DNA of 64,000 bases from Candidatus Dojkabacteria bacterium (GCA_030950485.1 JAUZRK010000001.1:103998-167997), one strand, 5' to 3'. Positions 3,325 through 58,611 are shown, counted from the stretch's first letter. Notes: generated by a model not told the origin, from the sequence alone. A program made the numbers and translations.

Positions 3325-6189
3325 ATGGCATTACCAAAAGGAGCTTACAATCCAAAAGAAAATGAACAAACTATACTTGATAGGTGGTTAGAAGCTTGTG
3401 CTTACAAACCCGAATATGATCCAAAGGAGAGCAGAGTAGTTAGTTTTGAGGAAATGAAAAATGATTCAAGAGAGGCGTGGAGTTTAATCTGTCCACCTCC
3501 AAATGCTTACGGAAGACCTCATATTGGAAATATTTCTGGATATGCATATATGGACGTAATGGCGAGATTTCAGAGAATGAATGGGAAAAAAGTTTTAGTT
3601 TTGCCAGGTAAAGACCATGCTGGTCTCGAAGGAGAGGGAGTATTCGTTAGAGAAGTACTTGAAAAGCAAAAAAGAGACAAATTCGACATGAAAAGAGAAG
3701 AGTTCTATTCAGAAATGATGGATTTCTTTGAAAACAATATGGATATTGCTATGAAAGATGAGAAAGAAATTGGACTTTCTGCAGATTTTGATAGAGATAC
3801 TTTTACACTTGACCCTGATATTGTAGAGACTGTTTTAGATACATTTGTTGAAATGTATAACGCAGGAATGATTTATAAGGGGGTTAGATTAATCAACTGG
3901 GATCCAAAGGCCAGAACTGCAGTTGCAGACAATCAAATACTTTATAAGGAATCAAAGACGCCTTTCTTTTATTTTAAGTATATTTATAAAACTGGAGACG
4001 AGAAAAGGGCCATTGAGCTGAAAAATGAATTTGAAGGAAAAGAGCTTGAATGGAACTATGAAAGAAATATGACAAAAGACGGGAAAGAGGATTTAACTTT
4101 TTCATATGGTCATTTGGATAATCTTGAGATTATGGGATATGGATACAGTAACGTCCAATCAGGAGACAAAATCAGGGGTAGAGTAGTGGGCATACAAATG
4201 AGGTTGGATAGTAAATACCGATTAGTGGTTATCCATCCTGACTATTCAGGAGACATCAAAAATGATATTGCTCAAACATTTTTATTCGAAGCAAAGTACT
4301 ACGCTGGAGCACACATTCTTTTATTCGAAGAGAATTCAAATGATTCAGATTATACAAATGGATTTGTAATTGGAACAGTACGACCTGAAACTGTATTTTC
4401 AGACACGGCAATAGCTTGTGATCCAAAAGATGAAAGATACAAAGAATTTGTTGGAAAAGAGGTTGAAGTAGAGTTCTTAGGAGAGAAGAAAAAATTAAAC
4501 TTCATTGCAGATTTTGCAGTTGATAAAGATTTTGGAACAGGTTTACTTAAGGTAACTCCAGCCCATGCAAAAGAAGACTGGGAGATTGCAAGCAGACATC
4601 CTGAAGAATGTTTACCTGCTATTCAGTGTATTAATTATGATTTAACAATGAATCATATATCTGGAGAGAAATATTCTGGTAAAAAGGCAAAACTTGTTAG
4701 AACTGAAATGAGAGAGGATATGTTAAAGAAGGGAAATCTTGTTTACGTTAATGATGAATACGAGAATAAAATACAGGTTGCAGAAAGAACTGAAGCCCCA
4801 ATCGAGCCTTTATTGTCTTCTCAGTGGTATTTAAGATACGACGGTATAAAGGAAGCTACAATTTTAATGGCGTTTAATGAGCATAATGATGATACAAATT
4901 TGGAACAGAGCAGAGAAGAACTGGAAGAGATATTGGAGAAATTCAATTCCGTAGGGGCAAATAATTATTTGCCCCTACGGAACGATTTACCCTTACAGAA
5001 GAGTTTACCTGAACAGAATGAAGATATTGAAACGAGAACAGATTCAAAGGCAACGAACCCGCAACCAGAGACCCATAACTCAGTTCACATACACCCCGAA
5101 ACAATGGTTCCAAAGTTTAATCATTGGATGAATAATTTAAGGGATTGGGCAATTTCAAGAAGTTTATGGTGGGGGTATAGATTGCCGGTTTGGTATTCAG
5201 GAGAGGTTAAGGAGGTTATTGATGAGAATGGACAGGTAAAGGAGTTGATTATGCAAAATGGTACATTTGTTGAATTAGAATATGCTAATCCAGAGCATAT
5301 TAAAGTACAGAAAGAATCACCTGGAGAAAGCTGGATCCAAGACGAAAACGTACTCGACACTTGGTTTAGTTCTGGGCAATGGGTTTATGCGACATTAAGA
5401 AAACATAATTTAATGGATGAATTTTTCCCATCAGACGTTATGGTTTCAGGTTTTGACATAATGGAGAATTGGATTAGTAGGATGATGATGTTTACTTATT
5501 TTAAAGAGAAGTCTATTCCGTTTAAGGATGTATATCTAACAGGATTGGTAAAAGGTACAGATGGACAGAAAATGAGTAAGTCAAAAGGTAACTTAATAAA
5601 CATTGACGAGGTTAGAGAAAAATACGGAACTGACGCGGTTAGAATGGTTTATTATTACCAAAATACTGCTGGTGCTGATTATGCAATGACTTATGAGAAG
5701 CTTGATACATTTAAGAAGTTTGTAAATAAGATTTGGAATGCGAGTAAATTCGTAGAGATGAATGTTGATGGCTCCGAAGGCGTAGGGACAAATAATAATT
5801 TGTCCTTACAAGATTTTCAATTGCCAGAGACAAAAGCCTTATTTAATCACATTCAAGAAATTAAAGAACAGATTACAAAGAATATTGAATCATTCGAGTT
5901 AGGTCATGCAACCTACAACCTTTATCATGGGTTCTGGCATGAATTTGCAGATGTCCATATTGAGGCTGTAAAGAAATATACTTATACTCAAAGAGATAAA
6001 GAAACAGGAGAGATAATTAGTGAGCCAAAGGCTGAAGAAAAAATTGAGGTGGGTAGAGTGTTGCTGTATGCTTTAAAGAATTACCTAAAAATGCTACATC
6101 CATTTATGCCATTTGTAACTCAAAGAATTTGGGATGAGTTAGAAAAGGAAGAGGGGGAGCATGAGTTTTTGATGTATTGCAAGTGGTAA
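3325..6189 (+). CDS. valS: valyl-tRNA synthetase (class I aaRS)
   Basis: 954 aa; HIGN-type motif PHIGNISGYAYMD, KMSKS motif GQKMSKSKGN, editing-domain-sized insert; carries an in-frame palindromic insertion at 4947-4983. Confidence 0.8.
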   Translation: MALPKGAYNPKENEQTILDRWLEACAYKPEYDPKESRVVSFEEMKNDSREAWSLICPPPNAYGRPHIGNISGYAYMDVMARFQRMNGKKVLVLPGKDHAGLEGEGVFVREVLEKQKRDKFDMKREEFYSEMMDFFENNMDIAMKDEKEIGLSADFDRDTFTLDPDIVETVLDTFVEMYNAGMIYKGVRLINWDPKARTAVADNQILYKESKTPFFYFKYIYKTGDEKRAIELKNEFEGKELEWNYERNMTKDGKEDLTFSYGHLDNLEIMGYGYSNVQSGDKIRGRVVGIQMRLDSKYRLVVIHPDYSGDIKNDIAQTFLFEAKYYAGAHILLFEENSNDSDYTNGFVIGTVRPETVFSDTAIACDPKDERYKEFVGKEVEVEFLGEKKKLNFIADFAVDKDFGTGLLKVTPAHAKEDWEIASRHPEECLPAIQCINYDLTMNHISGEKYSGKKAKLVRTEMREDMLKKGNLVYVNDEYENKIQVAERTEAPIEPLLSSQWYLRYDGIKEATILMAFNEHNDDTNLEQSREELEEILEKFNSVGANNYLPLRNDLPLQKSLPEQNEDIETRTDSKATNPQPETHNSVHIHPETMVPKFNHWMNNLRDWAISRSLWWGYRLPVWYSGEVKEVIDENGQVKELIMQNGTFVELEYANPEHIKVQKESPGESWIQDENVLDTWFSSGQWVYATLRKHNLMDEFFPSDVMVSGFDIMENWISRMMMFTYFKEKSIPFKDVYLTGLVKGTDGQKMSKSKGNLINIDEVREKYGTDAVRMVYYYQNTAGADYAMTYEKLDTFKKFVNKIWNASKFVEMNVDGSEGVGTNNNLSLQDFQLPETKALFNHIQEIKEQITKNIESFELGHATYNLYHGFWHEFADVHIEAVKKYTYTQRDKETGEIISEPKAEEKIEVGRVLLYALKNYLKMLHPFMPFVTQRIWDELEKEEGEHEFLMYCKW
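4947..4983. repeat. GC-rich perfect palindrome ttccgtaggggcaaataattatttgcccctacggaa embedded in-frame in valS (encodes SVGANNYLPLRN)
   Basis: perfect inverted repeat; same element recurs in two other genes. Confidence 0.8.
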
Positions 6190-48233: not shown

Positions 48234-48797
48234 CTAGACAACTTTTACATATATTCTAAATTCATACCTAATCTCACACTCTAAAACTCTAGTTACAAAT
48301 TTCTGACTTTTCTCTATCTTCCATATTGAATCATTAATTTCGGGGAAGAAAATATCACCTTCTATTTCATGATCTAAAACAGTTAAATATAACTTATCTG
48401 CTTTATCTATAAATTCATTATAAAGACTCGCACCTCCAAAAATAAAAATCTCTTCAGAACCAGGAGAGTTGTTTGCGATTTCTAAAGCGCTTTCAATATT
48501 ATTAGCTAATTGCCCCTCACCCGTTTCTAAATCACTATTTGAGCTAAGAATTATATTTGTTCTGCCTGGTAGAGTTTTTGGTTTATCTAATTTCTTTCCA
48601 TCTGAACCCTTAAATGATTTAAAACTAGAGATGGACTCGAAGTTCTTTCGCCCCATTATTATCGGATGTCCCATTGTAAGTTTTTTGGTTCGTTGATAGT
48701 CTTCAGTTATATGCCAAGGGATTGTATTACCCTTTCCTATAACATTATTTTTAGACATTGCTGCGATTATTGAAATCATTCTTTTTATTGATACCAA
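48234..48797 (-). CDS. folA: dihydrofolate reductase
   Basis: MISIIAAMSKNNVIGKGNTIPW and GRKNFESI motifs. Confidence 0.75.
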   Translation of the reverse strand: MVSIKRMISIIAAMSKNNVIGKGNTIPWHITEDYQRTKKLTMGHPIIMGRKNFESISSFKSFKGSDGKKLDKPKTLPGRTNIILSSNSDLETGEGQLANNIESALEIANNSPGSEEIFIFGGASLYNEFIDKADKLYLTVLDHEIEGDIFFPEINDSIWKIEKSQKFVTRVLECEIRYEFRIYVKVV

Positions 48798-48849
48798 TTC
48801 TATTTTACATCATGGGAAATATTAAGGCGAGTTTATGGTGTTGGTTCGG

Positions 48850-48905
48850 GCGACGATGAAGGCGACAATCATGATTGTCGCCTTCGGATAATTGCCGCCT
48901 TCATT
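48850..48905. promoter_or_regulatory. perfect 28-bp palindrome gaaggcgacaatcatgattgtcgccttc plus two extra half-sites (ggcgacgat, aattgccgccttc) in the folA / kinase divergent region
   Basis: GC-rich dyad symmetry in an AT-rich spacer; operator-like or hairpin. Confidence 0.45.
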
Positions 48906-48930
48906 AAAAAAGGTTAATGAAATATAATCA

Positions 48931-49962
48931 TTGAAAATGACTGAAAAATTAATAAAAAAAATATTAAAAAAATATGGATATGATGTTGTAAAAATATATC
49001 CAGAGCAATCAGGGTATCGTAATAAATCTTATGCGGTTGATGTGATGCATTTGTATGATTCTGTAAGGGCAAAAAATATTTTGCCCCTACAGAGAAAACG
49101 AAATTTGATCCTTTATAAAAATGAGCAAGGAATTATTAAAAAAATACAAAACGCAAACGCAGTTTCAAATTTCCTCGCAGAACAAGGCATTCCATCAAGA
49201 AAATCTCTTGGGAAAATAATTAGGTTGCATGATGAGAAAATAGAAAGATTCGCATGTTTGTACAACTATCTTCCAGGAGAAACCATTTCATGGGAAGCTT
49301 ACAATAAAGAACATATTAAACTATTAGGGAAGGCAATGAGCGATATGCATTTTTATTTAAAGGATTATTCTAAAAAGGATAAGTTGGAAAGTATTGATGA
49401 AATCATTAAAAACCAGGCGAATAAAATGATTCAATATTTTAAAAAAGAGGGTGTTAGAAATGCGATGGTTAGGAAATTGGGATTGATATGTAATATAAAT
49501 TTTATAAACAAATTCGTAGGGGCCGAAAATCTTCGGCCCCTACAAAACATATATTCAGATCAATCTATTCCCCTCCACATGGACCTCGTCCGTAGCAACG
49601 TTCTATTTGATTTAGATAAAAATAAAGACATATTTATTTCAGGAATCATAGATTTCGAAAAAGTAGCAAAGGGAAATCGAATATTTGATATCGCGAGAAC
49701 CTTGGCGTTTCTTCTTGTAGATTGTAAATATAAAGATCCAGTTAAAATTAGGAAATACTTTTTAATAAGTGGATATAAAAAAAGAGAGCTAGAAGATTTA
49801 CCAGATTTAACTCATTTAAACTATTTAATTTACTATTTTTTAACATACGATTTTTATAAATTCTTAAGACATAATCCTTATGAATCATTAAACTCGAATG
49901 AGCATTTTATTCGTACGAAAAACTTTTTACTAAGTAAAAAAATCCTGATAAGCTGTAGTTAA
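48931..49962 (+). CDS. APH/choline-kinase-like phosphotransferase
   Basis: Brenner motif HMDLVRSNVLFD and IIDFEK; carries two in-frame palindromic insertions. Confidence 0.6.
   Translation: MKMTEKLIKKILKKYGYDVVKIYPEQSGYRNKSYAVDVMHLYDSVRAKNILPLQRKRNLILYKNEQGIIKKIQNANAVSNFLAEQGIPSRKSLGKIIRLHDEKIERFACLYNYLPGETISWEAYNKEHIKLLGKAMSDMHFYLKDYSKKDKLESIDEIIKNQANKMIQYFKKEGVRNAMVRKLGLICNINFINKFVGAENLRPLQNIYSDQSIPLHMDLVRSNVLFDLDKNKDIFISGIIDFEKVAKGNRIFDIARTLAFLLVDCKYKDPVKIRKYFLISGYKKRELEDLPDLTHLNYLIYYFLTYDFYKFLRHNPYESLNSNEHFIRTKNFLLSKKILISCS
49061..49092. repeat. palindrome gtaagggcaaaaaatattttgcccctac embedded in-frame in the kinase gene (SVRAKNILPLQR)
   Basis: family A element, one arm mismatch. Confidence 0.7.
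49515..49546. repeat. palindrome gtaggggccgaaaatcttcggcccctac embedded in-frame in the kinase gene (VGAENLRPLQN)
   Basis: family A variant, perfect 12-bp arms. Confidence 0.7.
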
Positions 49963-50010
49963 CTTAGAACAAAAAAAGACTCTCCATTTTAAATATTTAC
50001 TTCAAAAAAA

Positions 50011-50589
50011 ATGGCTGAAAAAAAGAAGAGAACTAGTTTTAACTGGCGGACCAGACTCGCGGCGCAATCAGATTTAATGGATTTAGGAGAAAGGATTAGA
50101 GCAAAGAAAAAGAAAATAGTTTTTACAGCAGGAAACTGGGATTTACTTCATGTAGGACAAACTAGATATCTTCAAAAAGCTAAGGAATTAGGAGATGTAT
50201 TAGTCGTTGGAGTAGCTAGTGATATTGCTGTTAGAGAGAAGAAGGGAAAGAACAAGCCTATTTTAGGAGAATTAATTAGAGCCGAAATGTTAGCTAATAT
50301 TCGGTGGGTAGATTTTGTTACTATCTTTCCAGAGACAAGTTGCCAGCCATCTTTAGGACTTTTAAAACCAGATGTGTTTCTAACTGTTGTAGAAGATTGG
50401 AATACAGATTTTGAAAATTCCAAGGAGTATAAAACTGTAACTAGCTATGACGGGGAAGTTGTAAAAGCCGATAGGCAATCTCCATTTCTTTCAACAACAA
50501 AAATACTAGATAGAGCAATTGGAGGAAAGCTTAGCGATATGTTTAAAGATTTTATGGACTACAGAAAGGATCCGTTAAGAGAAAAATAA
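50011..50589 (+). CDS. HxGH cytidylyltransferase-like nucleotidyltransferase (RfaE-II/TagD/CCT-like fold)
   Basis: FTAGNWDLLHVGQTRYLQKAKELGDVLVVGVASD. Confidence 0.55.
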   Translation: MAEKKKRTSFNWRTRLAAQSDLMDLGERIRAKKKKIVFTAGNWDLLHVGQTRYLQKAKELGDVLVVGVASDIAVREKKGKNKPILGELIRAEMLANIRWVDFVTIFPETSCQPSLGLLKPDVFLTVVEDWNTDFENSKEYKTVTSYDGEVVKADRQSPFLSTTKILDRAIGGKLSDMFKDFMDYRKDPLREK

Positions 50590-50592
50590 TAT

Positions 50593-51177
50593 ATGGAAAA
50601 GAAATTAAACGAAAAATTACTAGAAGCTATAGCAATTATGTCTAATGTTATGCGAGATGTAGTTTCTAAAGGCTATATTTGGGGCGGGTGTGTAGCTGAT
50701 GTATATTCAGGAGACTTTGTAAGAGAGCATGAAGATATTGAGTACTTAATTGAAGATCTTCATAAAAAATTATTGCTCATTATTAAAACATTTAACGTTT
50801 ACGGTTGGGAGATCGAAAGTTTAACTAATGGAGATCTTAAAGCTAAATCTGGAGATGTTGAAATTTTAATGAGTCATGCAGAATTTCCTGAAGGGAAGGA
50901 GTATGCGAGATGGTATTACAAGCCAGAACTTGGTTATATTGAGTTTCCATATGAATGGTTAAATCAAGAAACTATCCTGTTTAACGGTGTCCCTCTTAAT
51001 GCAGTCAGCCCTGAATTCCAATATGTATTAAGGAAAAATCCTAAGTCATTAAATCCTATTTGGAAGACTAGAGATAAAGATTCTCATGATCTAGCTAGAT
51101 TAAAAGAGATCATTATAAAAAGGGGAGTAGATTTGGAAAGTCTAGATTCAAATATAAAATTAGTAAAAATTATATAG
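50593..51177 (+). CDS. aminoglycoside-2''-adenylyltransferase-like minimal nucleotidyltransferase
   Basis: IWGGCVADVYSGDFVREHEDIEYLIED resembles the ANT(2'')/PF10706 signature. Confidence 0.45.
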   Translation: MEKKLNEKLLEAIAIMSNVMRDVVSKGYIWGGCVADVYSGDFVREHEDIEYLIEDLHKKLLLIIKTFNVYGWEIESLTNGDLKAKSGDVEILMSHAEFPEGKEYARWYYKPELGYIEFPYEWLNQETILFNGVPLNAVSPEFQYVLRKNPKSLNPIWKTRDKDSHDLARLKEIIIKRGVDLESLDSNIKLVKII

Positions 51178-52182
51178 TTGAAAGTAGATAACAAAGTAAC
51201 AGCAAAATTAAATGAACAAGAAAAACAGGAGCTCTATAAAAACGCTAGGGCTAAAGCTTGGTACGATGGGATTTGGCAAACTGTAGGAAAGTGTGTTTTC
51301 TGCGATCTTCGAGATAAATATATTATTCATGAGGAACATGGAATTGTTTTAACTGTAAATATCTACCCGTATATTGACGGTCAAATGCTAGCTGTTCCTA
51401 GAAATCATATTAAATCCCCGAAGGAATTAACTGAAAGACAATGGGAGACAATGAGAAAATTTAGCTATATTGCTAAGAAATTAATAAGAAAGACTCATGG
51501 TCATAAAGGTATGTGGAGCCTACTTAGAGAGGGCGGCATTAATGCTCAGATGAGTGTTTCTGATCATTTACATATGCAATTTATACCCTTCGATAACTCA
51601 GACCTTGCGACATGGAACTACCGTGAGTTAAAGCATACGCCGCTTGAGAATGCTGGACTTTATAAAGAGAACTTTAAGGTTATTCAAAAGAATGCTATTA
51701 AGTTCGATGAGAAATATAGCTCAGGGCAGCTATTAAATTTAATCACGGATTGTATTTTCAAAAATGAAAAAGGTGAAGCGCTTCTAATAAAAAGATGTGA
51801 AGATCATAAAATAGAAGGTTATGATTATTGCTTCCCGGGAGGTCATCTTGATCATGTAGATCAAGGAGTTTTTGGATCACTTTTCGATGAAATGAAAGAA
51901 GAGGTAAATTATTCGATAAAAGAGGAGAGTGTTAAGTTACTCGATTCGAGACTTTCTAAAATCACTTATCTAAATGATTCAAAATATTTAGGAGTCGAGA
52001 TGAAGAATTCTGAAAACGTTTTATGGAATATATACTACTACGATAAAGTAGTTAATTCATCAGAGTTTAAAGCAGGCGATGATGCCGACAGTTTGTATTG
52101 GATAAAAGAAGACGAGGTCGATAAATTCAAAGGTATATCTAAGGAGACTAAAGAAATTTTACATAAGTTTTTTTCACTATGA
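51178..52182 (+). CDS. HIT-superfamily (GalT-like HxHxQ branch) and Nudix-like fusion protein
   Basis: N-terminal CVFCD zinc knuckle and DHLHMQFIP; C-terminal FPGGHLDHVDQGVFGSLFDEMKEEVN Nudix-like box. Confidence 0.5.
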   Translation: MKVDNKVTAKLNEQEKQELYKNARAKAWYDGIWQTVGKCVFCDLRDKYIIHEEHGIVLTVNIYPYIDGQMLAVPRNHIKSPKELTERQWETMRKFSYIAKKLIRKTHGHKGMWSLLREGGINAQMSVSDHLHMQFIPFDNSDLATWNYRELKHTPLENAGLYKENFKVIQKNAIKFDEKYSSGQLLNLITDCIFKNEKGEALLIKRCEDHKIEGYDYCFPGGHLDHVDQGVFGSLFDEMKEEVNYSIKEESVKLLDSRLSKITYLNDSKYLGVEMKNSENVLWNIYYYDKVVNSSEFKAGDDADSLYWIKEDEVDKFKGISKETKEILHKFFSL

Positions 52183-53138
52183 AATTCTTCGACTGGAATG
52201 AATACGCATTTAAAAGTAAGAGTGATATCAAATCATTAAAACCATTGGTGTTTTTAGCCGCTCCGAGGAAATTAAGTGAACAATATGTAGTAAATTTATT
52301 CAAGAGTTATGCTACGAGTTCCAATGTACTTATAGGTATAGCTAAAGAGGACTTTATTAAAGGTTTTGAAGACCAAGAGCAATTTCGTACTTTGAAGCTT
52401 ACTGATATAGAAAATTTTGTCGATAAGGTTCGGAAGTCTAAGGCTAAAGATCGACTGCATTTTATTGAATACTTCCAAGATGATCTAATCCATATTTTAG
52501 AGAAGATACCTTTTAAAAAAGTACTGTTTGTTAACGGGTCATGGAGTAGAGTCTTCCATACAAGGTCTGAATTTTATACTTTGGTAAAAAATAAAATAGA
52601 TTATGAACTAGTCTCTGCGTTTAGTTCGGAAGAAGAGGCGAAAGAGTATTTTAAAAGTATAAAGTCAAAAGTACAAAAAGATACAAAGAAAATTAAAATT
52701 GGACATATATTTAAAGATGATAACGAGGCGTTTGAACTTGTAGATAACATAGCTAAATTCAGTTTTGACAATTCTTTTCAGACCGGAGCAGTCTTAACTA
52801 AGAATAAGAAGTTACTTGCTTATAGTTGGAACAGGGTCGTGCCGTATGAAACGTACGCTTTGTTAAACGGTTATCAAAGAGAAATTCATTTAAGTCCGCC
52901 TAACGATACTAATCATTACGATACTAATCACGCGGAGGTTGAAATGTTAATTAAGGCGAATAAAGAAAATATTGATTTAGCTGGAACGACTCTTTATATA
53001 AATTTATTACCTTGTCCTAGTTGCGCAAGAATGATTTGCAATACTGAAATTTCTGAGATTAAATATAAGATCGATCATAGTGAGGGTTATGCGTTTGATT
53101 TGCTCAAAAAAGCTGGGAAGGAGGTGGAGAGAGTTTAG
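52179..53138 (+). CDS. unknown N-terminal domain fused to a CMP/dCMP-type zinc-dependent cytidine deaminase domain
   Basis: HAEVEML .. PCPSCARMI (H[AC]E..PCxxC) in the C-terminal 140 aa; overlaps the upstream gene by 4 nt. Confidence 0.55.
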   Translation: MKFFDWNEYAFKSKSDIKSLKPLVFLAAPRKLSEQYVVNLFKSYATSSNVLIGIAKEDFIKGFEDQEQFRTLKLTDIENFVDKVRKSKAKDRLHFIEYFQDDLIHILEKIPFKKVLFVNGSWSRVFHTRSEFYTLVKNKIDYELVSAFSSEEEAKEYFKSIKSKVQKDTKKIKIGHIFKDDNEAFELVDNIAKFSFDNSFQTGAVLTKNKKLLAYSWNRVVPYETYALLNGYQREIHLSPPNDTNHYDTNHAEVEMLIKANKENIDLAGTTLYINLLPCPSCARMICNTEISEIKYKIDHSEGYAFDLLKKAGKEVERV

Positions 53139-53469
53139 AGTTATGGGTTTTGGGTTTATAGTGTACTAAAATTTTCGTACATTCTTTAAAAATTTAATCT
53201 GTATTATTCACCTCATAGGGGGATAGAAAACCTAAAGATCTGTATTAATCCGTTTAATCAGTTAAATCTGTGTTCTATTTTCAATGGTCAAATTGAACAC
53301 TGATAAAACTGATCAGTACTGATTCTATTACAATTTGAACAATTTACTTTTGACTTTATATTTTTAACTTTTTACTTTATTTATAGTTAAAGGGATCATT
53401 TAAATGTTTAGTTATAAGCCAACCGGCATACGGGGTTTGATATAGTAAACTAAACAATTCAGCTCTTAA

Positions 53470-53640
53470 AAAAATTAGTGCAATCCCCTCCTACGGAGGG
53501 GTACCCGACAGGGCAGGGAGGGTAGCGAGCATTTAAAAAGCTCTCGAGTCAGGATTTAACATACCCAACCCCTTCCGTATTAGCTACGCTAATCCACCTT
53601 CCCGAAGGGAAGGATTAAAACATAAATACAGAGTGAGACT
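53470..53640. ncRNA. GC-rich structured island upstream of thyA (candidate riboswitch or small RNA), flanked by AT-rich direct repeats
   Basis: hairpins cccctcc/tac/ggagggg, ccttccc/gaa/gggaagg and gtgaga/ctttttt/ctcac; long-range gggagggtagcgagc vs gctacgct..ccaccttccc complementarity. Confidence 0.3.
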
Positions 53641-53719
53641 TTTTTCTCACAACTTTTATTTTAGAATAATTAGGATAATTTGCTTTTGACTTTATACTTT
53701 TAACTTTTTACTTTGCACT

Positions 53720-54673
53720 ATGATCCATCCAGAATACGAATACCTAAAACTTTTAGCGAAGCTTTTAAAAAATGGTAAGGGAAAAAAGACTAGAGGGATA
53801 CATGGAGGGAAATCTCTTTTCGGATATCAAATGCGATTTGATTTTCGACATGGATTTCCAGTTTTAACTACGAAGAAAATGCCTTGGAAGATTATGACGA
53901 GGGAGTTACTTTGGTTCATTTCTGGTTCTTCAAATATTAGGAAGCTACAAGAAAAGGGGATTAAGTATTGGGATGATTTTGCAGATACTGAGGGAAATCT
54001 CGGTCCGGTTTATGGTGTTCAGTGGAGAAAGTGGCCTGCTTTCACGCCTTTAACTCAACCTAAACCTGACTTTTATGCGCACGAGATGAGTGAAACAGAT
54101 TCGTTTAAATCTGATTTTCCTAAGCCTAAATATTGGGTTGATGAGAATGGAGATAAACATGAGTTTGATAATAAAGTTGGTTTGTATCAGAGGACTGAAC
54201 TTGATCAGTTAAAGTGGGCAATTAGTGAGATTAAAAATAATCCCGATTCTAAGGCGATTATTGTTCAAGCTTGGAATACTGCTTACTTAGATTCGATGAG
54301 ATTACCTCCTTGTCATACTATGTTTCAATTCGATGTTACTAAGGGTAAGTTAAGATTACATCTTTATCAAAGAAGCTCTGATGTATTTCTAGGGTTACCG
54401 TTTAATATTACGCAGTACGCTCTTTTATTAGCTATGGTCGCGCACGTTACGGGCTTAGAGGCGAGAGAGTTTGTTGTTAGTATCGGTTCGGCTCTACTTT
54501 ATTATAATCATATTGAGCCTGCGAAGGAGCAGCTTAAAAGAAAACCTTATCCATTCCCAAAACTTTGGTTAAATCCGGAGGTTACGGATATTGATAATTT
54601 TAGCATTAAGGATATAAAGAGGAAGGGGTATGAGGCTCATCCAAGGATTAAGGGGGAGTTGGTAGTGTTATAA
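53720..54673 (+). CDS. thyA: thymidylate synthase ThyA
   Basis: catalytic Cys in LPPCHTMFQF; 317 aa with a typical ThyA insert. Confidence 0.8.
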   Translation: MIHPEYEYLKLLAKLLKNGKGKKTRGIHGGKSLFGYQMRFDFRHGFPVLTTKKMPWKIMTRELLWFISGSSNIRKLQEKGIKYWDDFADTEGNLGPVYGVQWRKWPAFTPLTQPKPDFYAHEMSETDSFKSDFPKPKYWVDENGDKHEFDNKVGLYQRTELDQLKWAISEIKNNPDSKAIIVQAWNTAYLDSMRLPPCHTMFQFDVTKGKLRLHLYQRSSDVFLGLPFNITQYALLLAMVAHVTGLEAREFVVSIGSALLYYNHIEPAKEQLKRKPYPFPKLWLNPEVTDIDNFSIKDIKRKGYEAHPRIKGELVVL

Positions 54674-55046: not shown

Positions 55047-55160
55047 CTCTAGAAATTTACGATTGAAGGGATGTAAAATACAAACCCGGTGCAGTCTCGA
55101 GTGATTTACGACCGAAGGGATGTAAATTGTATCGAGAGGCGGACACCCCCTCCGCTTCGC
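55047..55160. repeat. two tandem copies of a 35-bp unit containing the dyad ATTTAC-N12-GTAAAT, followed by a GC-rich hairpin
   Basis: gtctctagaaatttacgattgaagggatgtaaaat / gtctcgagtgatttacgaccgaagggatgtaaatt. Confidence 0.5.
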
Positions 55161-55175
55161 TCCAGGCACTCGACA

Positions 55176-56615
55176 CTACACTTTTATAATAAGCTTATTA
55201 TAAATATCAATATGCCCCTGGAGCATTTTTCTTAGAGTAAATTTATTCTCAAAGCTATCTCTACAAACGCTCCTATCAACTTGATTAATTTTCTCCATCA
55301 CTTCAACTAACTCATCGACAACCCTAGACTCACCATAATAGAAATCTCTCACCTTCTTCATCTTACTCTCATAATAACTCTTTCTCTTTTCCCGGTCAGA
55401 ATCATTAATAACAAAACCATTTTTCCCATTTTCTATCAGCTCTTTTGTAGCCCCATTATCTAAACCTATAACCGGAGTCCCACATGATAAGGCCTCTATA
55501 GTAACCATTCCAAACGGCTCCTTAAATATAGAAGGTACTAACAACGCCTTAGCATTCCCTAAAAATTTCTGCTTAGCTTTGTCGCCTGAAACGTATCCAA
55601 CGTATTCAACTGTATCATTTAGTTCAGGCGCAATTACAGAATTCCAATATGAATCATTCGACTCATCTGAATAATGCTTTCCTGCAATCTTTAGAGTTAC
55701 GGGTTTCGAGTTTCGGGTTGCGAGTTCCTCATTATATTTTTTTACTGCAGCTATTGCGTAGTGGACCCCTTTTGGTTCAATTATTCTCCCGAGATAAGCA
55801 AAATATTCTGTATCATTTTGGCCAGCAGGAGCAGGACTTGGCTCACCAGCTGGAGATGGGTTGTACCCTGGTCCTAAATATTTTGGCTTAAACCTTTTTT
55901 CATCAATTCCATGATAAACATTCCCAACCCAATTCGTATCATCCGGCATATCTTCTCTTTGAGATAGAGACATTGAGATAAAATTTCTATCTTTATATTT
56001 CGGTAAAATAGTTCGATATTTCGTTAGAAAAGAGTAGGGATCATGATGCGTAAATACAACTGGCTTATTACAAAGCCCGCTCATCTCAAGTGCGATCTGT
56101 TCTTCCAACATGTAAACATGAACAATATCAAACATATCATCATTAGCCATTTCGTAGGCTTTGGCTATTATTTCAGATTGAAAATGTCTAGAGAGAGTAG
56201 TGAACAGTAAGGGATGTTTTTTAAGGAGTTCTTTTAGACCGTAACCCCTAGTTTCCAGTTCTTCTTTCAGTAGGGTTTGGTCTGCGGTGATGTTTTTTAC
56301 GGTAGGGGCAAAATATCTTTTACCTTTACTCTTTTTTGTTGGATCAAAAAATCTTTTGCCCTTACTGTTATCTCGACCAACAACCCCAGGCGAAAACAAC
56401 GTAACCTCAGCTCCTGCCTCGGCAAGACCATTTGCAAGATCAATAGCAAGATCTCCCGGAGAAAATATATTATCAGACATCAATTCATCCGACATAAAAA
56501 TATGCGGACAAACGAATGCAATTCGTATTGGAAAATTAGGGGCTGTCATCTGCTCTCGTAGGGGCAAAATATTTTTTGCCCCTACGGATTCGATTACATT
56601 ATTTTTCTTCCTCAT
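55176..56615 (-). CDS. GT4-family glycosyltransferase with several in-frame repeat insertions
   Basis: EPFGMVTIEALSCGTPVIGLDNG near the C-terminus; family A palindromes at 56293-56368 and 56557-56586; family C repeat at 55694-55726. Confidence 0.6.
   Translation of the reverse strand: MRKKNNVIESVGAKNILPLREQMTAPNFPIRIAFVCPHIFMSDELMSDNIFSPGDLAIDLANGLAEAGAEVTLFSPGVVGRDNSKGKRFFDPTKKSKGKRYFAPTVKNITADQTLLKEELETRGYGLKELLKKHPLLFTTLSRHFQSEIIAKAYEMANDDMFDIVHVYMLEEQIALEMSGLCNKPVVFTHHDPYSFLTKYRTILPKYKDRNFISMSLSQREDMPDDTNWVGNVYHGIDEKRFKPKYLGPGYNPSPAGEPSPAPAGQNDTEYFAYLGRIIEPKGVHYAIAAVKKYNEELATRNSKPVTLKIAGKHYSDESNDSYWNSVIAPELNDTVEYVGYVSGDKAKQKFLGNAKALLVPSIFKEPFGMVTIEALSCGTPVIGLDNGATKELIENGKNGFVINDSDREKRKSYYESKMKKVRDFYYGESRVVDELVEVMEKINQVDRSVCRDSFENKFTLRKMLQGHIDIYNKLIIKV
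56557..56586. repeat. palindrome cgtaggggcaaaatattttttgcccctacgg in-frame in the GT4 gene (ESVGAKNILPLRE)
   Basis: family A element; degenerate copies at 56293-56330 and 56343-56368. Confidence 0.75.
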
Positions 56616-57129: not shown

Positions 57130-58611
57130 TTAATCTAACACAATCTCCTCATCAATCTCCGCATTAGGATCTCGATCAACTCGATCAAAGTTATTAAATA
57201 AAACTCCCAGAGACTCTGCTTTATCTTTATTCTCTCTAAGATAATCAAATAGACTTCCCATTTTATTTACCCCGTTTCCTGTTTCTCGACCCAACTCGAT
57301 ACCCGCAACCCGTAACTCACCTCCCGCTACTCCTAACTTAATATTCGCAGCTACTCCAATCATCGCAGCATTATCTCCAGTCAGCTTAGAAGAGTAGGGA
57401 TACTTTAATTTAACATCATTCTTCTTACATAAACTTCTAAATTCTGATCTTAATCTCTTACTTGCAATAACCCCTCCACCAAGCCAAAGTTCACTTGGAT
57501 TATGCTTCTTTATAGCTCTTTCTAATTTAACTTTTAATTGAGTAATTGCCGAAGCTTCAATCATTACGCATAGATCATTTATTTGATCTCCCGATAAGTT
57601 CTTAGTTTCTTTATTAAGTTGATCTTCAATAGTTATCTCATCTTTTACCAATGAATTAGTTAATTCTTTAAAAGCAGTTTTTAAACCTGAAAAACTAAAG
57701 TTAAAATCTCCAGATCTATACATAGGAATTGGAAGAGAGTAGCTAGTGCCACTTTCTTTATTAGTACCTATAACATTTGTGCTTTTATTATTCTTTTTTA
57801 TTTCAATTTTAAATTTCTTTCTTTGATCATCTGCAAACCTACTAACTGTAGGACCTGCAGGATATCCTAATCCAAGCATACGCCCAGCCTTATCGTAATA
57901 TTCTCCACATGAATCATCTAAAGTAACCCCAATTTTTTCGTAATCTCCAATCCCATTTACTTTAATCATTTCCGTATGCCCCCCAGATATAAGAAAGCCC
58001 AGTACTGCTTTTCCTTCCCTTGAGGGAAGGTCCCTGAAAGGGGGATGGGTGATTTGACCATGTTCTTTATCGTGCTTAATTTTTACCTTAGAATTTCTCT
58101 CAACAAAACCAGACAACAAATGCCCTTCCATATGATTAATAATCATCAAAGGCTTATCAAATTTTTCAGCTAAAGCAATGGCCTTTCTAACTCCAACCTC
58201 TAACGCAATAGCTAATCCAGGACCATAAGTAACAGCAACTAAATCGACTTCACTCATATACTTTCTTAAATCACTTTCTTGTGTTTCCCCCTCTCCTGGG
58301 AGAGGGCTGGGCCTGTCCGAAGCTGCTGCATCGTTGCTGGCGGAGTGAGGGATAGCTCTTTTTAAAGCTTCCACCACTACATTATCAATCCTCTCTGTAT
58401 GAGCTAACTTAGCAAGGCTTGGCACAACACCTCCATATTTTTCGTGGTATTTTTGTTGAGAAGGCATTACGCTAGATAGAACAGTAGTACCTCTAACAAT
58501 TGAACAAGATGTTTCATCACAAGATGTATCAATCGCCAAAGTTGTAATTTCGTTTATAGATTTAGAATTCATTAGGTAATTATACCAAATGAAATTAGAT
58601 CGAACCTGCAA
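57130..58611 (-). CDS. tsaD: tRNA N6-threonylcarbamoyladenosine synthase TsaD (Kae1/Gcp), extended by insertions
   Basis: LAIDTSCDETSCSIV and INHMEGHLL motifs; 493 aa vs about 340 typical; contains a family B palindrome (58287-58307) and a family C repeat (57285-57318). Confidence 0.7.
   Translation of the reverse strand: MQVRSNFIWYNYLMNSKSINEITTLAIDTSCDETSCSIVRGTTVLSSVMPSQQKYHEKYGGVVPSLAKLAHTERIDNVVVEALKRAIPHSASNDAAASDRPSPLPGEGETQESDLRKYMSEVDLVAVTYGPGLAIALEVGVRKAIALAEKFDKPLMIINHMEGHLLSGFVERNSKVKIKHDKEHGQITHPPFRDLPSREGKAVLGFLISGGHTEMIKVNGIGDYEKIGVTLDDSCGEYYDKAGRMLGLGYPAGPTVSRFADDQRKKFKIEIKKNNKSTNVIGTNKESGTSYSLPIPMYRSGDFNFSFSGLKTAFKELTNSLVKDEITIEDQLNKETKNLSGDQINDLCVMIEASAITQLKVKLERAIKKHNPSELWLGGGVIASKRLRSEFRSLCKKNDVKLKYPYSSKLTGDNAAMIGVAANIKLGVAGGELRVAGIELGRETGNGVNKMGSLFDYLRENKDKAESLGVLFNNFDRVDRDPNAEIDEEIVLD

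What the first reader, a model, noticed from the sequence alone, without database searches (positions are those of the whole stretch)
48234..54673. Unusual module between folA and thyA: kinase + two nucleotidyltransferases + HIT-Nudix fusion + DUF-cytidine deaminase
Divergent from folA lie, in order: an APH/ChoK-like kinase; an HxGH cytidylyltransferase-like enzyme; an ANT(2'')-like minimal NTase; a GalT-branch HIT domain fused to a Nudix-like domain; and a 319-aa protein whose C-terminal half is a CMP/dCMP-type deaminase (HAE..PCPSC) behind an unknown 180-aa domain. Three of these genes overlap or abut: 50589/50593, 51177/51178, and 52182/52179 (4-nt overlap). A GC-rich structured island and then thyA follow. 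The dCMP deaminase, ThyA and DHFR make a thymidylate cycle. The phosphorylate-then-nucleotidylate pair plus HIT/Nudix pyrophosphate chemistry is not part of that cycle. It could be a salvage or activation route for a small molecule (CDP-alcohol head group, for example) or a nucleotide-modification or depletion activity.
Basis: partly seen in the sequence, partly recalled or inferred. Interest (0 to 1): 0.6.

Follow-up and report, generated by a model that had tools for sequence, protein, structure and literature searches.

The report
Conserved CPR thymidylate operon with extras
In this tiny-genome bacterium (Candidatus Dojkabacteria) and in hundreds of related Saccharibacteria, the three genes that make the DNA building block thymidylate always sit beside a kinase, an unusual cytidylyltransferase, a HIT enzyme and a glycosyltransferase of unknown role, which points to an undescribed step in how these bacteria supply DNA precursors.

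Summary
All seven ORFs are at the stated coordinates, and the domain calls are mostly right. The gene linkage is conserved.

- **Linkage.** In about 50 metagenome and genome loci of at least 5 kb, at 26-66% protein identity, kinase-CT-HIT(±Nudix)-deaminase are contiguous and co-directional.
- **Fusions.** HIT::deaminase and HIT::Nudix fusions both occur.
- **Deaminase N-terminal domain.** The unknown 176-aa domain is a degenerate cytidylyltransferase-like fold. It occurs almost only fused to this deaminase.
- **Cytidylyltransferase.** It carries an invariant HxGQ motif instead of HxGH.
- **194-aa "ANT-like" gene.** It is a lineage-specific ORFan and not part of the module.
- **Defence.** The deaminase is dCMP-deaminase-like, not defensive, and the module is absent from viral contigs.

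Best reading, at moderate confidence: this is a Patescibacteria dTMP-supply operon. HIT/Nudix would release dCMP from pyrophosphate-linked cytidine nucleotides for the deaminase. The kinase and CT would make an NDP-linked phospho-alcohol or sugar, possibly used by the GT4.

No substrates were determined. I rate it a new variant of a known kind, interest about 0.6.

The parts
48234..48797 (-). folA, dihydrofolate reductase. It is divergent from the operon here but co-directional and upstream of the kinase in most related loci.
   Evidence: Pfam DHFR_1 9.8e-47. folA is present in 29 of 35 long loci.
48931..49962 (+). APH-fold small-molecule kinase, substrate unknown. HxDxxRxN catalytic loop and D-F-E motif are conserved. 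It carries two in-frame 28-nt palindrome insertions.
   Evidence: Pfam APH in 8 of 8 orthologues, best 5e-21. Alignment A4. The nearest PDB match is only amicoumacin kinase, E=0.006. Present in 33 of 35 loci.
50011..50589 (+). HxGH-superfamily nucleotidyltransferase (ECT/CCT/TagD/RfaE-II clade) with an invariant HxGQ variant motif (TAGxWDxxHxGQ) and DRQS..STT. It is the most conserved protein of the module.
   Evidence: ECT 3elb 1.3e-23, HldC 8.9e-18. It is 50-66% identical across loci. Present in 32 of 35 loci.
50593..51177 (+). Lineage-specific ORFan inserted in the operon. It has a weak, sub-threshold resemblance to ANT(2'')-type nucleotidyltransferases and is not part of the conserved module.
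   Evidence: No Pfam or NCBIfam hit at E<=0.01. PF10706 at E=0.073. Only a self-hit among 5.8e9 proteins. Absent from all related loci.
51178..51720 (+). HIT domain (CVFCDL ... HLHMQFIPFD) of the HIT::Nudix fusion. Its nearest solved relatives are the HIT domain protein 6af2 and the Ap4A phosphorylase 3ano.
   Evidence: It lies directly upstream of the deaminase in every locus with enough flank. It is fused to the deaminase in P0014, P0024, P0059, P0242 and L024.
51721..52182 (+). Nudix domain of the HIT::Nudix fusion. The family Nudix box REVxEETG is conserved, but the window copy has D in place of R. The domain is present in only some lineages.
   Evidence: Pfam NUDIX 3.9e-06. Alignment A2. 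Presence and absence per locus.
52179..52706 (+). N-terminal domain of the deaminase protein. It is a degenerate cytidylyltransferase-like (HUP Rossmann) fold in which the HxGH loop is replaced by FIAAPRExS. Predicted to be a ligand-binding or docking domain.
   Evidence: No Pfam or PDB sequence hit. AF2 pLDDT 92. Foldseek best matches are HldC 5xf2, Fom1 CyTase and PPAT and viral TagD/ECT-like cytidylyltransferases. Only 70 clusters among 1.84e9 representatives, almost all fused to the deaminase.
52707..53138 (+). dCMP-deaminase-type zinc deaminase domain (HAE ... PCPSC). The canonical allosteric G[YW]NG motif is altered to SWNR/FNKV.
   Evidence: 4p9c 1.4e-09; T4 Cd, S-TIM5, S. mutans and human dCMP deaminases.
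53139..53719 (.). Window-specific spacer. A 57-nt direct repeat (53322-53378 and 53658-53714) flanks about 280 nt with GC-rich perfect hairpins. It is not part of the conserved module.
   Evidence: no Rfam family; z=-3.7. Orthologous loci have thyA directly after the deaminase.
53720..54673 (+). thyA, canonical folate-dependent thymidylate synthase (PCH and PFN motifs). It is about 45 aa longer than the orthologues.
   Evidence: Pfam 1.7e-99. NCBIfam equivalogs pass: 331 bits against a cutoff of 327, and 312 against 108. Present in 30 of 35 loci.
55176..56615 (-). GT4 glycosyltransferase, convergent with thyA. It is an orthologous neighbour in 29 of 35 loci through three different gene arrangements. 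It carries two in-frame palindrome insertions.
   Evidence: (33-45% identity, full length). For the orthologue, the best PDB matches are glucosylsucrose synthase 7fg9/8x3q at 3e-42 and pteridine glucosyltransferase at 1e-20.

Best explanation
This is the Dojkabacteria copy of a conserved Patescibacteria "thymidylate operon". The ancestral-looking order is folA-kinase-CT-HIT(±Nudix)-[CT-like::dCMP deaminase]-thyA, with a convergent GT4.

**Steps supported by homology**
- The deaminase domain converts dCMP to dUMP.
- ThyA methylates dUMP to dTMP.
- DHFR regenerates tetrahydrofolate.

**Steps inferred from fusions and gene order**
- The HIT enzyme, and the Nudix domain where present, cleave pyrophosphate-linked cytidine deoxynucleotides to dCMP. 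Candidate substrates are dCTP, dCDP-X and dinucleoside polyphosphates.
- They hand that dCMP to the deaminase.

**Steps inferred more weakly**
- The APH-fold kinase phosphorylates a small alcohol or sugar.
- The HxGQ cytidylyltransferase joins the phosphorylated product to an NTP, giving an NDP-X.
- That NDP-X is the HIT/Nudix substrate, the donor for the GT4, or both.
- The deaminase's N-terminal domain is a catalytically dead paralogue of such a cytidylyltransferase. It either senses a nucleotide, taking over the dCTP/dTTP allostery of classical dCMP deaminases, or docks the deaminase onto the CT, much as the two tandem CT domains of ECT pair.

The 194-aa ORF and the GC-rich spacer are local insertions.
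For: **Conserved linkage**
- The four genes are contiguous and co-directional in all of the roughly 50 loci of at least 5 kb.
- All seven genes are present in at least 29 of the 35 longest loci.
- The linkage survives three different rearrangements.
- Distant members outside the Saccharibacteria ribosomal-protein context keep kinase-CT-HIT-deaminase (L009) or HIT-deaminase with GT4, folA and thyA (L008).
- Stop/start codons overlap: 4 nt between HIT::Nudix and the deaminase here, and 4 nt and 1 nt at the corresponding L004 junctions.

**Fusions**
- HIT::deaminase proteins of 497-531 aa occur in several 90%-identity clusters.
- The HIT::Nudix family has 205 hits at E<=0.001. All but five of the 120 listed carry both HIT-type and Nudix Pfam domains.

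**Enzyme identities**
-.

**N-terminal domain**
- Two structure libraries give cytidylyltransferase folds as the best matches.
- Its invariant residues (R30, S33, Y98, Q100, S121, W122, H127) sit where the CT nucleotide-binding motifs lie.
- The domain is almost never found apart from the deaminase.
- The canonical allosteric GYNG motif is altered.
Against: - No substrate was determined for the kinase, CT, HIT, Nudix or GT4.
- The CT resembles ATP-using RfaE-II as much as it resembles CTP-using ECT/CCT, so a cytidine nucleotide is not shown.
- A kinase+CT+HIT cycle whose net effect is dCTP to dCMP is biochemically roundabout.
- Fusion of adjacent overlapping genes can arise by simple stop-codon loss.
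- GT4 is always on the opposite strand to thyA, so it is not co-transcribed.
- hhalign does not support sequence homology between the N-domain and the CT (probability 4%).
- The window's own Nudix box is degenerate.
Confidence: 0.4

Rival explanations
1. Two unrelated pathways share one growth-coupled operon. Kinase + CT + GT4, with HIT/Nudix as proof-reading or recycling enzymes, would form a salvage-type NDP-sugar or NDP-alcohol route. That route would be Leloir-, Kennedy-, HldE- or AmgK/MurU-like and would glycosylate an envelope component or a soluble small molecule. The deaminase, ThyA and DHFR would make dTMP independently.
For: - The pairing of an APH-fold kinase with an ECT/HldC-like nucleotidyltransferase is the classic two-step activation pattern.
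- The GT4 orthologue is closest to small-molecule glucosyltransferases: TeGSS at 3e-42 and pteridine GT at 1e-20.
- GalT-type and ADP-glucose-phosphorylase-type HIT enzymes and Nudix enzymes act on NDP-sugars (established knowledge).
- Unrelated genes are tolerated between kinase and CT in several loci.
Against: - The three unknown genes are sandwiched between folA and deaminase-thyA in the commonest order, and they stay with them through three rearrangements and in distant lineages.
- The HIT::deaminase fusions argue for a direct functional link.
- The deaminase itself carries a CT-like domain.
Confidence: 0.27
2. A deoxynucleoside and thymidine-nucleotide economy. The kinase would be a novel APH-fold deoxynucleoside (dC/dU/dT) kinase feeding dCMP, dUMP or dTMP. 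CT, HIT and Nudix would handle thymidine or deoxycytidine nucleotide conjugates, for example making and recycling dTDP- or dCDP-sugars used by the GT4. The N-domain would sense dTTP or a dTDP-sugar for feedback.
For: - Every gene would then concern one nucleotide pool, which explains the clustering with thyA and folA and, in 16 of 35 loci, with a long Tmk-like protein.
- dTTP is the classical inhibitor of dCMP deaminase (established knowledge).
Against: - No APH-fold deoxynucleoside kinase or HxGH-type thymidylyltransferase is known.
- The kinase gives no hit to nucleoside kinases.
- Nucleotide specificity could not be tested here.
Confidence: 0.15
3. A tailoring pathway for a modified pyrimidine nucleotide or DNA base, or for a glycosylated pterin/folate-type cofactor, in a cellular organism. 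It would be analogous to phage hypermodification clusters or to cyanobacterial pteridine glycosides.
For: - The gene set mirrors the phage RB69/DLP3 clusters for arabinosyl-5-hydroxycytosine. Those hold a ThyA homologue, GT4-like GTs, an APH-like kinase fused to an NDP-sugar pyrophosphorylase, a dCTPase and a Tmk-like kinase (PMC13326640).
- The GT4 is related to UDP-glucose:tetrahydrobiopterin glucosyltransferase, and it sits next to two folate enzymes.
Against: - ThyA is canonical. It passes the equivalog cutoffs, has the dUMP-specifying Asn in PFN, and is accompanied by DHFR, so no hydroxylated base is made.
- The Ndeam and CT searches found nothing in viral contigs.
- No pterin-biosynthesis genes were seen in the cluster.
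Confidence: 0.08
4. An anti-phage nucleotide-depletion (dCTP deaminase-type) defence island.
For: Weak hits of the deaminase to NF041025 anti-phage dCTP deaminase (33 bits) and PADLOC dCTPase (34.9 bits).
Against: - Those hits cover only about 46 residues around the zinc motif.
- Full-domain sequence and fold similarity is to dCMP deaminases.
- No other PADLOC hit was found.
- The locus is a conserved core-genome locus beside ribosomal protein genes.
- It is co-operonic with thyA and folA.
Confidence: 0.02

Closest known systems
Bacterial and phage thymidylate-cycle gene sets: dCMP deaminase (ComEB, T4 Cd), ThyA and DHFR, for example thyA-folA operons and the T4 frd-td genes
   Same: The same three activities are predicted. 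The deaminase has HAE/PCxxC and a dCMP-deaminase fold. ThyA and DHFR are canonical.
   Different: Here the deaminase carries a family-specific cytidylyltransferase-like N-domain and an altered allosteric motif. A kinase, a CT and a HIT gene are inserted inside the operon.
Two-step activation pairs: choline/ethanolamine kinase + CCT/ECT (Kennedy pathway), HldE (heptose kinase + RfaE-II adenylyltransferase), and AmgK/MurU
   Same: An APH-fold kinase lies next to an HxGH-superfamily nucleotidyltransferase whose best solved relatives are ECT, HldC, CCT and TagD.
   Different: The second His of HxGH is invariantly Gln. The kinase matches no characterised subfamily. No CDP-alcohol transferase is present, and the context is thymidylate synthesis.
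Ap4A phosphorylase 3ano and the HIT domain protein 6af2. From memory and not tested here: 3ano is Mycobacterium tuberculosis Rv2613c, whose operon also holds the GT4 PimA and a Nudix hydrolase.
   Same: These are the closest solved HIT relatives. A HIT enzyme co-occurs with a Nudix and a GT4.
   Different: Sequence similarity is low (E about 1e-4). The third His is H or Q depending on lineage. There are no PI/PIM genes here. The HIT is fused to Nudix or to the deaminase.
Phage DNA-hypermodification clusters (RB69/DLP3 arabosyl-5-hydroxycytosine; PMC13326640)
   Same: The parts list overlaps: a ThyA-family enzyme, GT4-like glycosyltransferases, an APH-like kinase plus a nucleotidyltransferase, a dCTP-cleaving enzyme and a Tmk-like kinase.
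   Different: This module is cellular and core-genomic and was not found in viral contigs. ThyA is canonical and comes with DHFR. The nucleotidyltransferase is of HxGH type, not MurU type. A dCMP deaminase is present.
Glucosylsucrose synthase TeGSS and UDP-glucose:tetrahydrobiopterin glucosyltransferase (small-molecule GT4 enzymes)
   Same: These are the best solved relatives of the module's GT4 (3e-42 and 1e-20).
   Different: The acceptor and donor are unknown here. There is no sucrose or biopterin context.

Membership tests
dCMP deaminase (ComEB/T4 Cd type, CDA superfamily) | Zinc-binding H-A-E and P-C-x-x-C motifs | tested here: met
   H251-A252-E253 and C279-P280-x-C282 are invariant in 41 sequences. 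Pfam PF00383 at 5.4e-13.
dCMP deaminase (ComEB/T4 Cd type, CDA superfamily) | Full-domain sequence and fold similarity to characterised dCMP deaminases rather than tRNA, cytosine or dCTP deaminases | tested here: met
   The best PDB sequence hits are 4p9c, 2hvv, 1vq2 and 2w4l. The top 14 Foldseek hits are all dCMP or dCMP/dCTP deaminases. ComEB TIGR02571 covers positions 24-138 of 151, but at 39 bits it is below its cutoff of 219.
dCMP deaminase (ComEB/T4 Cd type, CDA superfamily) | Allosteric dCTP/dTTP site motif G-[YW]-N-G | tested here: not met
   The motif is replaced by S-W-N-R in the window and F-N-K-V in the consensus. Only the Asn is kept. The motif definition is from my own knowledge.
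dCMP deaminase (ComEB/T4 Cd type, CDA superfamily) | Catalytic activity on dCMP | not testable with these tools
   An enzyme assay is needed.
HxGH nucleotidyltransferase (CTP_transf_like, PF01467) | Pfam or profile match over the whole domain | tested here: met
   PF01467 at 1.8e-12 over positions 2-131 of 133. A profile of 8 orthologues hits ECT at 1.3e-23.
HxGH nucleotidyltransferase (CTP_transf_like, PF01467) | H-x-G-H signature after strand 1 | tested here: not met
   H-V-G-Q. The Gln is invariant in 8 of 8 orthologues.
HxGH nucleotidyltransferase (CTP_transf_like, PF01467) | C-terminal R-T-x-G-I-S-T-T-type motif | tested here: met
   D-R-Q-S-x-x-x-S-T-T-x-I is invariant.
RfaE domain II / HldC (heptose-1-phosphate adenylyltransferase) | Score at or above the NCBIfam equivalog cutoff | tested here: not met
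   112 bits (118 for the L004 orthologue) against a cutoff of 181.5.
HIT superfamily | Histidine triad H-phi-H-phi-H-phi-phi | tested here: inconclusive
   The window has H-L-H-M-Q-F-I. Orthologues have either HxHxH or HxHxQ. Pfam DcpS_C passes at 30.6 bits against a cutoff of 24. Pfam HIT, at 18.3 bits, is below its cutoff of 21.5.
GalT branch of HIT (GalT, Apa1/2, ADP-glucose phosphorylase) | Homology to GalT or ATP-adenylyltransferase families, not only the HxHxQ motif | tested here: not met
   No GalT or Apa Pfam family appears at E<=0.01. The nearest structures are single-domain HIT proteins, 6af2 and 3ano.
Nudix hydrolase | Nudix box GX5EX7REUXEEXGU | tested here: inconclusive
   The family consensus is PGGxVD..LAREVxEETG, with one extra residue in the spacer, and the invariant residues are E238, E241 and E242. 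The window copy reads FDEMKEEVNY, with R changed to D and G changed to N. Pfam NUDIX passes at 27.3 bits against a cutoff of 21.1.
APH / eukaryotic-like kinase fold phosphotransferases | Catalytic loop HxDxxxxN and a downstream metal-binding Asp | tested here: met
   H216, D218, N223 and D241 (in D-F-E) are invariant in 8 orthologues. Pfam APH matches 8 of 8.
Choline/ethanolamine kinase or homoserine kinase II | Family-level score | tested here: not met
   Choline_kinase matches 1 of 8 at 3e-4. ThrB2 models score 50-73 bits against cutoffs of 256-271.
ANT(2'')-type minimal nucleotidyltransferase (the 194-aa ORF) | Significant match to PF10706 or to any NTase family | tested here: not met
   E=0.073, 13.6 bits against a cutoff of 21. 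No PDB hit below E=0.68.
Anti-phage dCTP deaminase defence | Full-length match to the defence deaminase, and a defence-island context | tested here: not met
   Only about 46 residues match. The locus is a core-genome operon with thyA and folA.

The most novel reading that the evidence does not exclude
The module may encode a previously unknown pathway in which an NDP-activated small molecule is mechanistically coupled to thymidylate chemistry. The APH-fold kinase and the HxGQ cytidylyltransferase would make that molecule. A GT4 related to glucosylsucrose synthase and to tetrahydrobiopterin glucosyltransferase would use it. The end product could be a glycosylated pterin/folate-type one-carbon cofactor, or a modified pyrimidine nucleotide or DNA base made by a cellular organism rather than a phage. 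In that pathway the CT-like::deaminase protein would act on a cytidine-nucleotide conjugate rather than on free dCMP.
Probability: 0.1. Interest if true: 0.85.

Novelty: new variant of a known kind. Interest (0 to 1): 0.6.

Why it matters
Saccharibacteria, Dojkabacteria and their relatives cannot make nucleotides de novo and live on what they take from hosts. How they balance their DNA precursor pools is largely inferred from annotation.

This operon shows that, in hundreds of such genomes, thymidylate synthesis is tied to three or four enzymes with no assigned pathway. It also involves a dCMP deaminase architecture found almost nowhere else (70 clusters among 1.84 billion representative proteins).

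Working out the chemistry would close a gap in the metabolic models of these bacteria. It could reveal a new way of regulating or feeding dCMP deaminase. It would also give a lineage-specific, probably essential target in organisms that are now genetically tractable. The HxGQ cytidylyltransferase and its dead paralogue are a clean case of an enzyme being turned into a regulatory or docking domain.

Tried and rejected
**Negative searches**
- Rfam and tRNA scans of the window found nothing. A permissive Rfam scan of the GC-rich spacer gave only chance-level hits.
- PADLOC and PHROGs gave no defence or phage family apart from generic dCMP-deaminase hits.
- Sequence searches for the N-domain against Pfam and PDB found nothing significant.
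- hhalign of the N-domain against the neighbouring CT gave a probability of only 4%, so paralogy rests on fold alone.
- The kinase alone had no PDB hit. A profile of 8 orthologues gave only amicoumacin kinase at E=0.006. Pfam scans of the orthologues did not single out a subfamily.
- IMG/VR scans for the deaminase and the CT found no viral copy. The single CT hit, L090, is an ordinary HxGH TagD-like gene in a phage glycosylation cluster.
- The 194-aa ORF has no homologues.
- Five of the literature searches found nothing on this operon. Two more each returned one unrelated paper.
- The GC-rich spacer has no copy elsewhere in the window and none in phage records.
- A Tmk-like long protein that is common near the module in Saccharibacteria is absent from this window.

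**Readings rejected**
- Defence by dCTP depletion.
- The CT as an NMN, FMN or pantetheine adenylyltransferase. NCBIfam gave no NadD, NadM or RibL hits and only weak PPAT hits.
- GalT-branch membership of the HIT domain.
- ThyA as a hydroxymethylase or hydroxylase.

Full report
**Observation**

The junctions are as described: a 3-nt gap, abutting ends and a 4-nt overlap.

Pfam and NCBIfam confirm DHFR, APH, CTP_transf_like, DcpS_C/HIT plus NUDIX, and thymidylate synthase above equivalog cutoffs. The dCMP/cytidine deaminase domain is confined to residues 181-296. Three window proteins are 100% identical to proteins of a Candidatus Dojkabacteria MAG contig of 179,567 bp.

**Corrections of detail**

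- The CT has H-V-G-Q where the superfamily has H-x-G-H. TAGxWDxxHxGQ is invariant in eight orthologues.
- The 194-aa "ANT(2'')-like" ORF reaches only E=0.073 against PF10706. It has no homologue but itself among 5.8 billion proteins and is missing from every related locus. It is a local ORFan insertion.
- The HIT motif is HLHMQ here but HxHxH in many orthologues. No GalT or Apa family is hit. The nearest solved proteins are single-domain HITs, 6af2 and the Ap4A phosphorylase 3ano.
- The 580-nt spacer before thyA is window-specific. A 57-nt direct repeat (53322-53378 and 53658-53714, 84% identity) brackets about 280 nt with GC-rich perfect hairpins. The RNA fold z-score is -3.7, there is no Rfam family and there is no other copy. 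In orthologous loci thyA follows the deaminase directly.

**Is the linkage conserved?**

Yes, strongly.

- A genome scan with the HIT::Nudix protein, exact-protein look-ups and a metagenome scan with the deaminase alignment together gave 89 loci.
- In all of the roughly 50 loci of at least 5 kb, kinase, CT, HIT(±Nudix) and deaminase are contiguous on one strand.
- Clustering all ORFs of the 35 longest loci, window included, gives Ndeam/HIT 35, kinase 33, CT 32, thyA 30, a GT4 glycosyltransferase 29 and folA 29. The next families are only ribosomal-protein neighbours, with 21 or fewer.
- The commonest order is folA-kinase-CT-HIT-deaminase-thyA on one strand, with the GT4 convergent.
- Two other arrangements keep the same genes together: GT4 ... 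thyA(-) | kinase-CT-HIT::Nudix-deaminase-folA, and CT-HIT::Nudix-deaminase-kinase-GT4-thyA(-).
- Distant members outside the Saccharibacteria rplA/rplJ context keep kinase-CT-HIT-deaminase (L009) or HIT-deaminase with GT4, folA and thyA (L008).
- The window's GT4 (55176-56615, minus strand) is the orthologue, at 33-45% identity over its full length.

**Fusions**

- The HIT::Nudix family has 205 hits at E<=0.001. All but five of the 120 listed carry both HIT-type and Nudix Pfam domains.
- HIT-only genes occur where the Nudix domain is absent.
- HIT::deaminase fusions of 497-531 aa occur in several clusters: P0014, P0024, P0059, P0242 and L024.

**The unknown N-terminal domain**

- It has no Pfam or PDB sequence match, even with a 23-sequence profile.
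- A profile search of 1.84 billion representative proteins finds only 70 clusters. Almost all are about 320-aa N-domain+deaminase proteins, fragments of them, or HIT fusions.
- AlphaFold models are confident: pLDDT 91.6 for the full protein and 92.3 for the domain alone.
- The C-terminal half superposes on the T4, S-TIM5, S. mutans and human dCMP deaminases.
- The N-domain's best matches in PDB are HldC (5xf2, E 7e-4, TM 0.54-0.61), the Fom1 cytidylyltransferase domain, PPAT and 3glv. In the viral structure library they are TagD-, CT-like and ECT-type cytidylyltransferases.
- It is therefore a cytidylyltransferase-like Rossmann fold whose HxGH loop has become FIAAPRExS.
- Its invariant residues sit at the positions of the CT nucleotide-binding motifs. 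The only stretch hhalign aligns with the neighbouring CT is the topologically equivalent one, but that result is not significant (probability 4%).
- The classical allosteric G[YW]NG motif of dCMP deaminases is changed to SWNR/FNKV.

**Other proteins**

- *CT.* It is the most conserved protein of the module, at 50-66% identity. A profile hits ECT (1.3e-23), HldC, CCT and TagD. NCBIfam ranks RfaE domain II first, but below its cutoff. The nucleotide and the acceptor cannot be read from sequence.
- *Kinase.* It keeps the catalytic HxDxxRxN and D-F-E motifs but falls into no characterised subfamily.
- *GT4.* The orthologue's best solved relatives are glucosylsucrose synthase (7fg9/8x3q, 3e-42; identified through PMC9909042), UDP-glucose:tetrahydrobiopterin glucosyltransferase (1e-20) and maltose-1-phosphate synthase. 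All three act on small soluble acceptors.

**Interpretation**

- The deaminase-ThyA-DHFR part is a thymidylate cycle by homology.
- Gene order and the HIT::deaminase and HIT::Nudix fusions suggest that HIT and Nudix deliver the deaminase's substrate. HIT enzymes release an NMP from NMP-X. Nudix enzymes release an NMP from NDP-X or NTP (established knowledge). The simplest reading is dCMP release from dCTP, dCDP-X or dinucleoside polyphosphates.
- The kinase and CT look like a two-step activation pair that makes an NDP-X. The GT4 may use that NDP-X.
- The N-domain is most economically a dead CT paralogue used as a nucleotide sensor or as a dock onto the CT.
- I give this integrated model about 0.4. 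Every substrate assignment for kinase, CT, HIT, Nudix and GT4 is inference.

**Rivals**

- *Two unrelated pathways in one operon, about 0.27.* Against it are the sandwiching of the unknown genes between thymidylate genes, the persistence of the cluster through rearrangements, and the fusions.
- *A deoxynucleoside or thymidine-nucleotide economy, including dTDP- or dCDP-sugars, about 0.15.* It makes sense of the whole cluster but has no enzymological precedent.
- *A tailoring pathway for a modified pyrimidine or a glycosylated pterin, about 0.08.* It is prompted by the striking overlap with the phage RB69/DLP3 clusters: a ThyA homologue, GT4-like GTs, an APH-like kinase fused to an NDP-sugar pyrophosphorylase, a dCTPase and a Tmk-like kinase (PMC13326640). 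The GT4's pteridine-GT relatives also point this way. Against it, ThyA here is canonical and is paired with DHFR.
- *Defence by dCTP depletion, effectively excluded.* The match covers only 46 residues, the context is core-genomic, and the Ndeam and CT searches found no viral copies.

**Novelty and score**

Five literature searches returned nothing and two more returned only an unrelated paper each, so none found a description of this operon, the N-domain or the HxGQ CT. That is absence in the searched library, not proof of absence.

The thymidylate cycle itself is ordinary. What is new is its obligatory coupling to an uncharacterised kinase/CT/HIT branch, the new deaminase architecture, and the restriction of both to a slice of Patescibacteria. 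I rate it a new variant of a known kind, with interest 0.6.

Noticed in passing
window 4951-4978, 49063-49090, 49516-49543, 56302-56329, 56558-56585: A 28-nt perfect or near-perfect palindrome, GTAGGGGC-N12-GCCCCTAC, occurs five times where none is expected by chance. All five copies lie inside ORFs and in frame: one in the 954-aa ORF 3325-6189, two in the kinase and two in the GT4. They encode peptides such as RAKNILPL, GAENLRPL and GKRYFAPT. Those in the kinase and the GT4 lie in window-specific insertions or extensions relative to orthologues. The pattern resembles the in-frame palindromic elements of Rickettsia.
   Followed up: partly
window 53139-53719: A window-specific spacer lies between the deaminase and thyA. 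A 57-nt direct repeat (84% identity), which duplicates the thyA upstream region, brackets about 280 nt with several GC-rich perfect hairpins, for example CCTTCCCGAAGGGAAGG. The RNA fold z-score is -3.7. There is no Rfam family and no other copy in the window. It could be a small mobile element or an unknown small RNA.
   Followed up: partly
window 55101-55190 and 58271-58360: Two further short islands exceed 55% GC in a genome of about 32% GC. One lies in the thyA/GT4 intergenic region. The other is inside the tsaD-like ORF 57130-58611, where it encodes a ...PSPLPGEGETQ... insert. Neither is similar in sequence to the 53.5-kb island.
   Followed up: no
L004 12840-14633, L006 16371-18527, L007 13937-16357 and 13 other loci: Long thymidylate-kinase-like proteins of 557-809 aa lie near the module in 16 of 35 loci. 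They have a Tmk domain at the N-terminus and a large unannotated remainder. In L007 the protein also carries a ThyX (Thy1) domain. No such gene is in this window.
   Followed up: partly
window 53720-54673: The window's ThyA is 317 aa, against 265-285 aa for most orthologues in the related loci. The extra segment, roughly residues 100-157, interrupts the Pfam and NCBIfam matches.
   Followed up: no
L001, L006, L013, L003, L089 (between kinase and CT, or between CT and HIT): The junctions around the CT gene repeatedly hold unrelated singleton ORFs in different lineages, for example 342 aa and 155 aa in L006, and 238 aa and 447 aa in L001. The window's 194-aa ORFan is one more. These junctions look like a hot spot for gene insertion inside an otherwise rigid operon.
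   Followed up: no
L002, L003: Two genome records that carry the module are titled "uncultured Pseudomonadales bacterium". Their gene content and their similarity to CPR loci suggest mis-binned or mislabelled Patescibacteria contigs.
   Followed up: no
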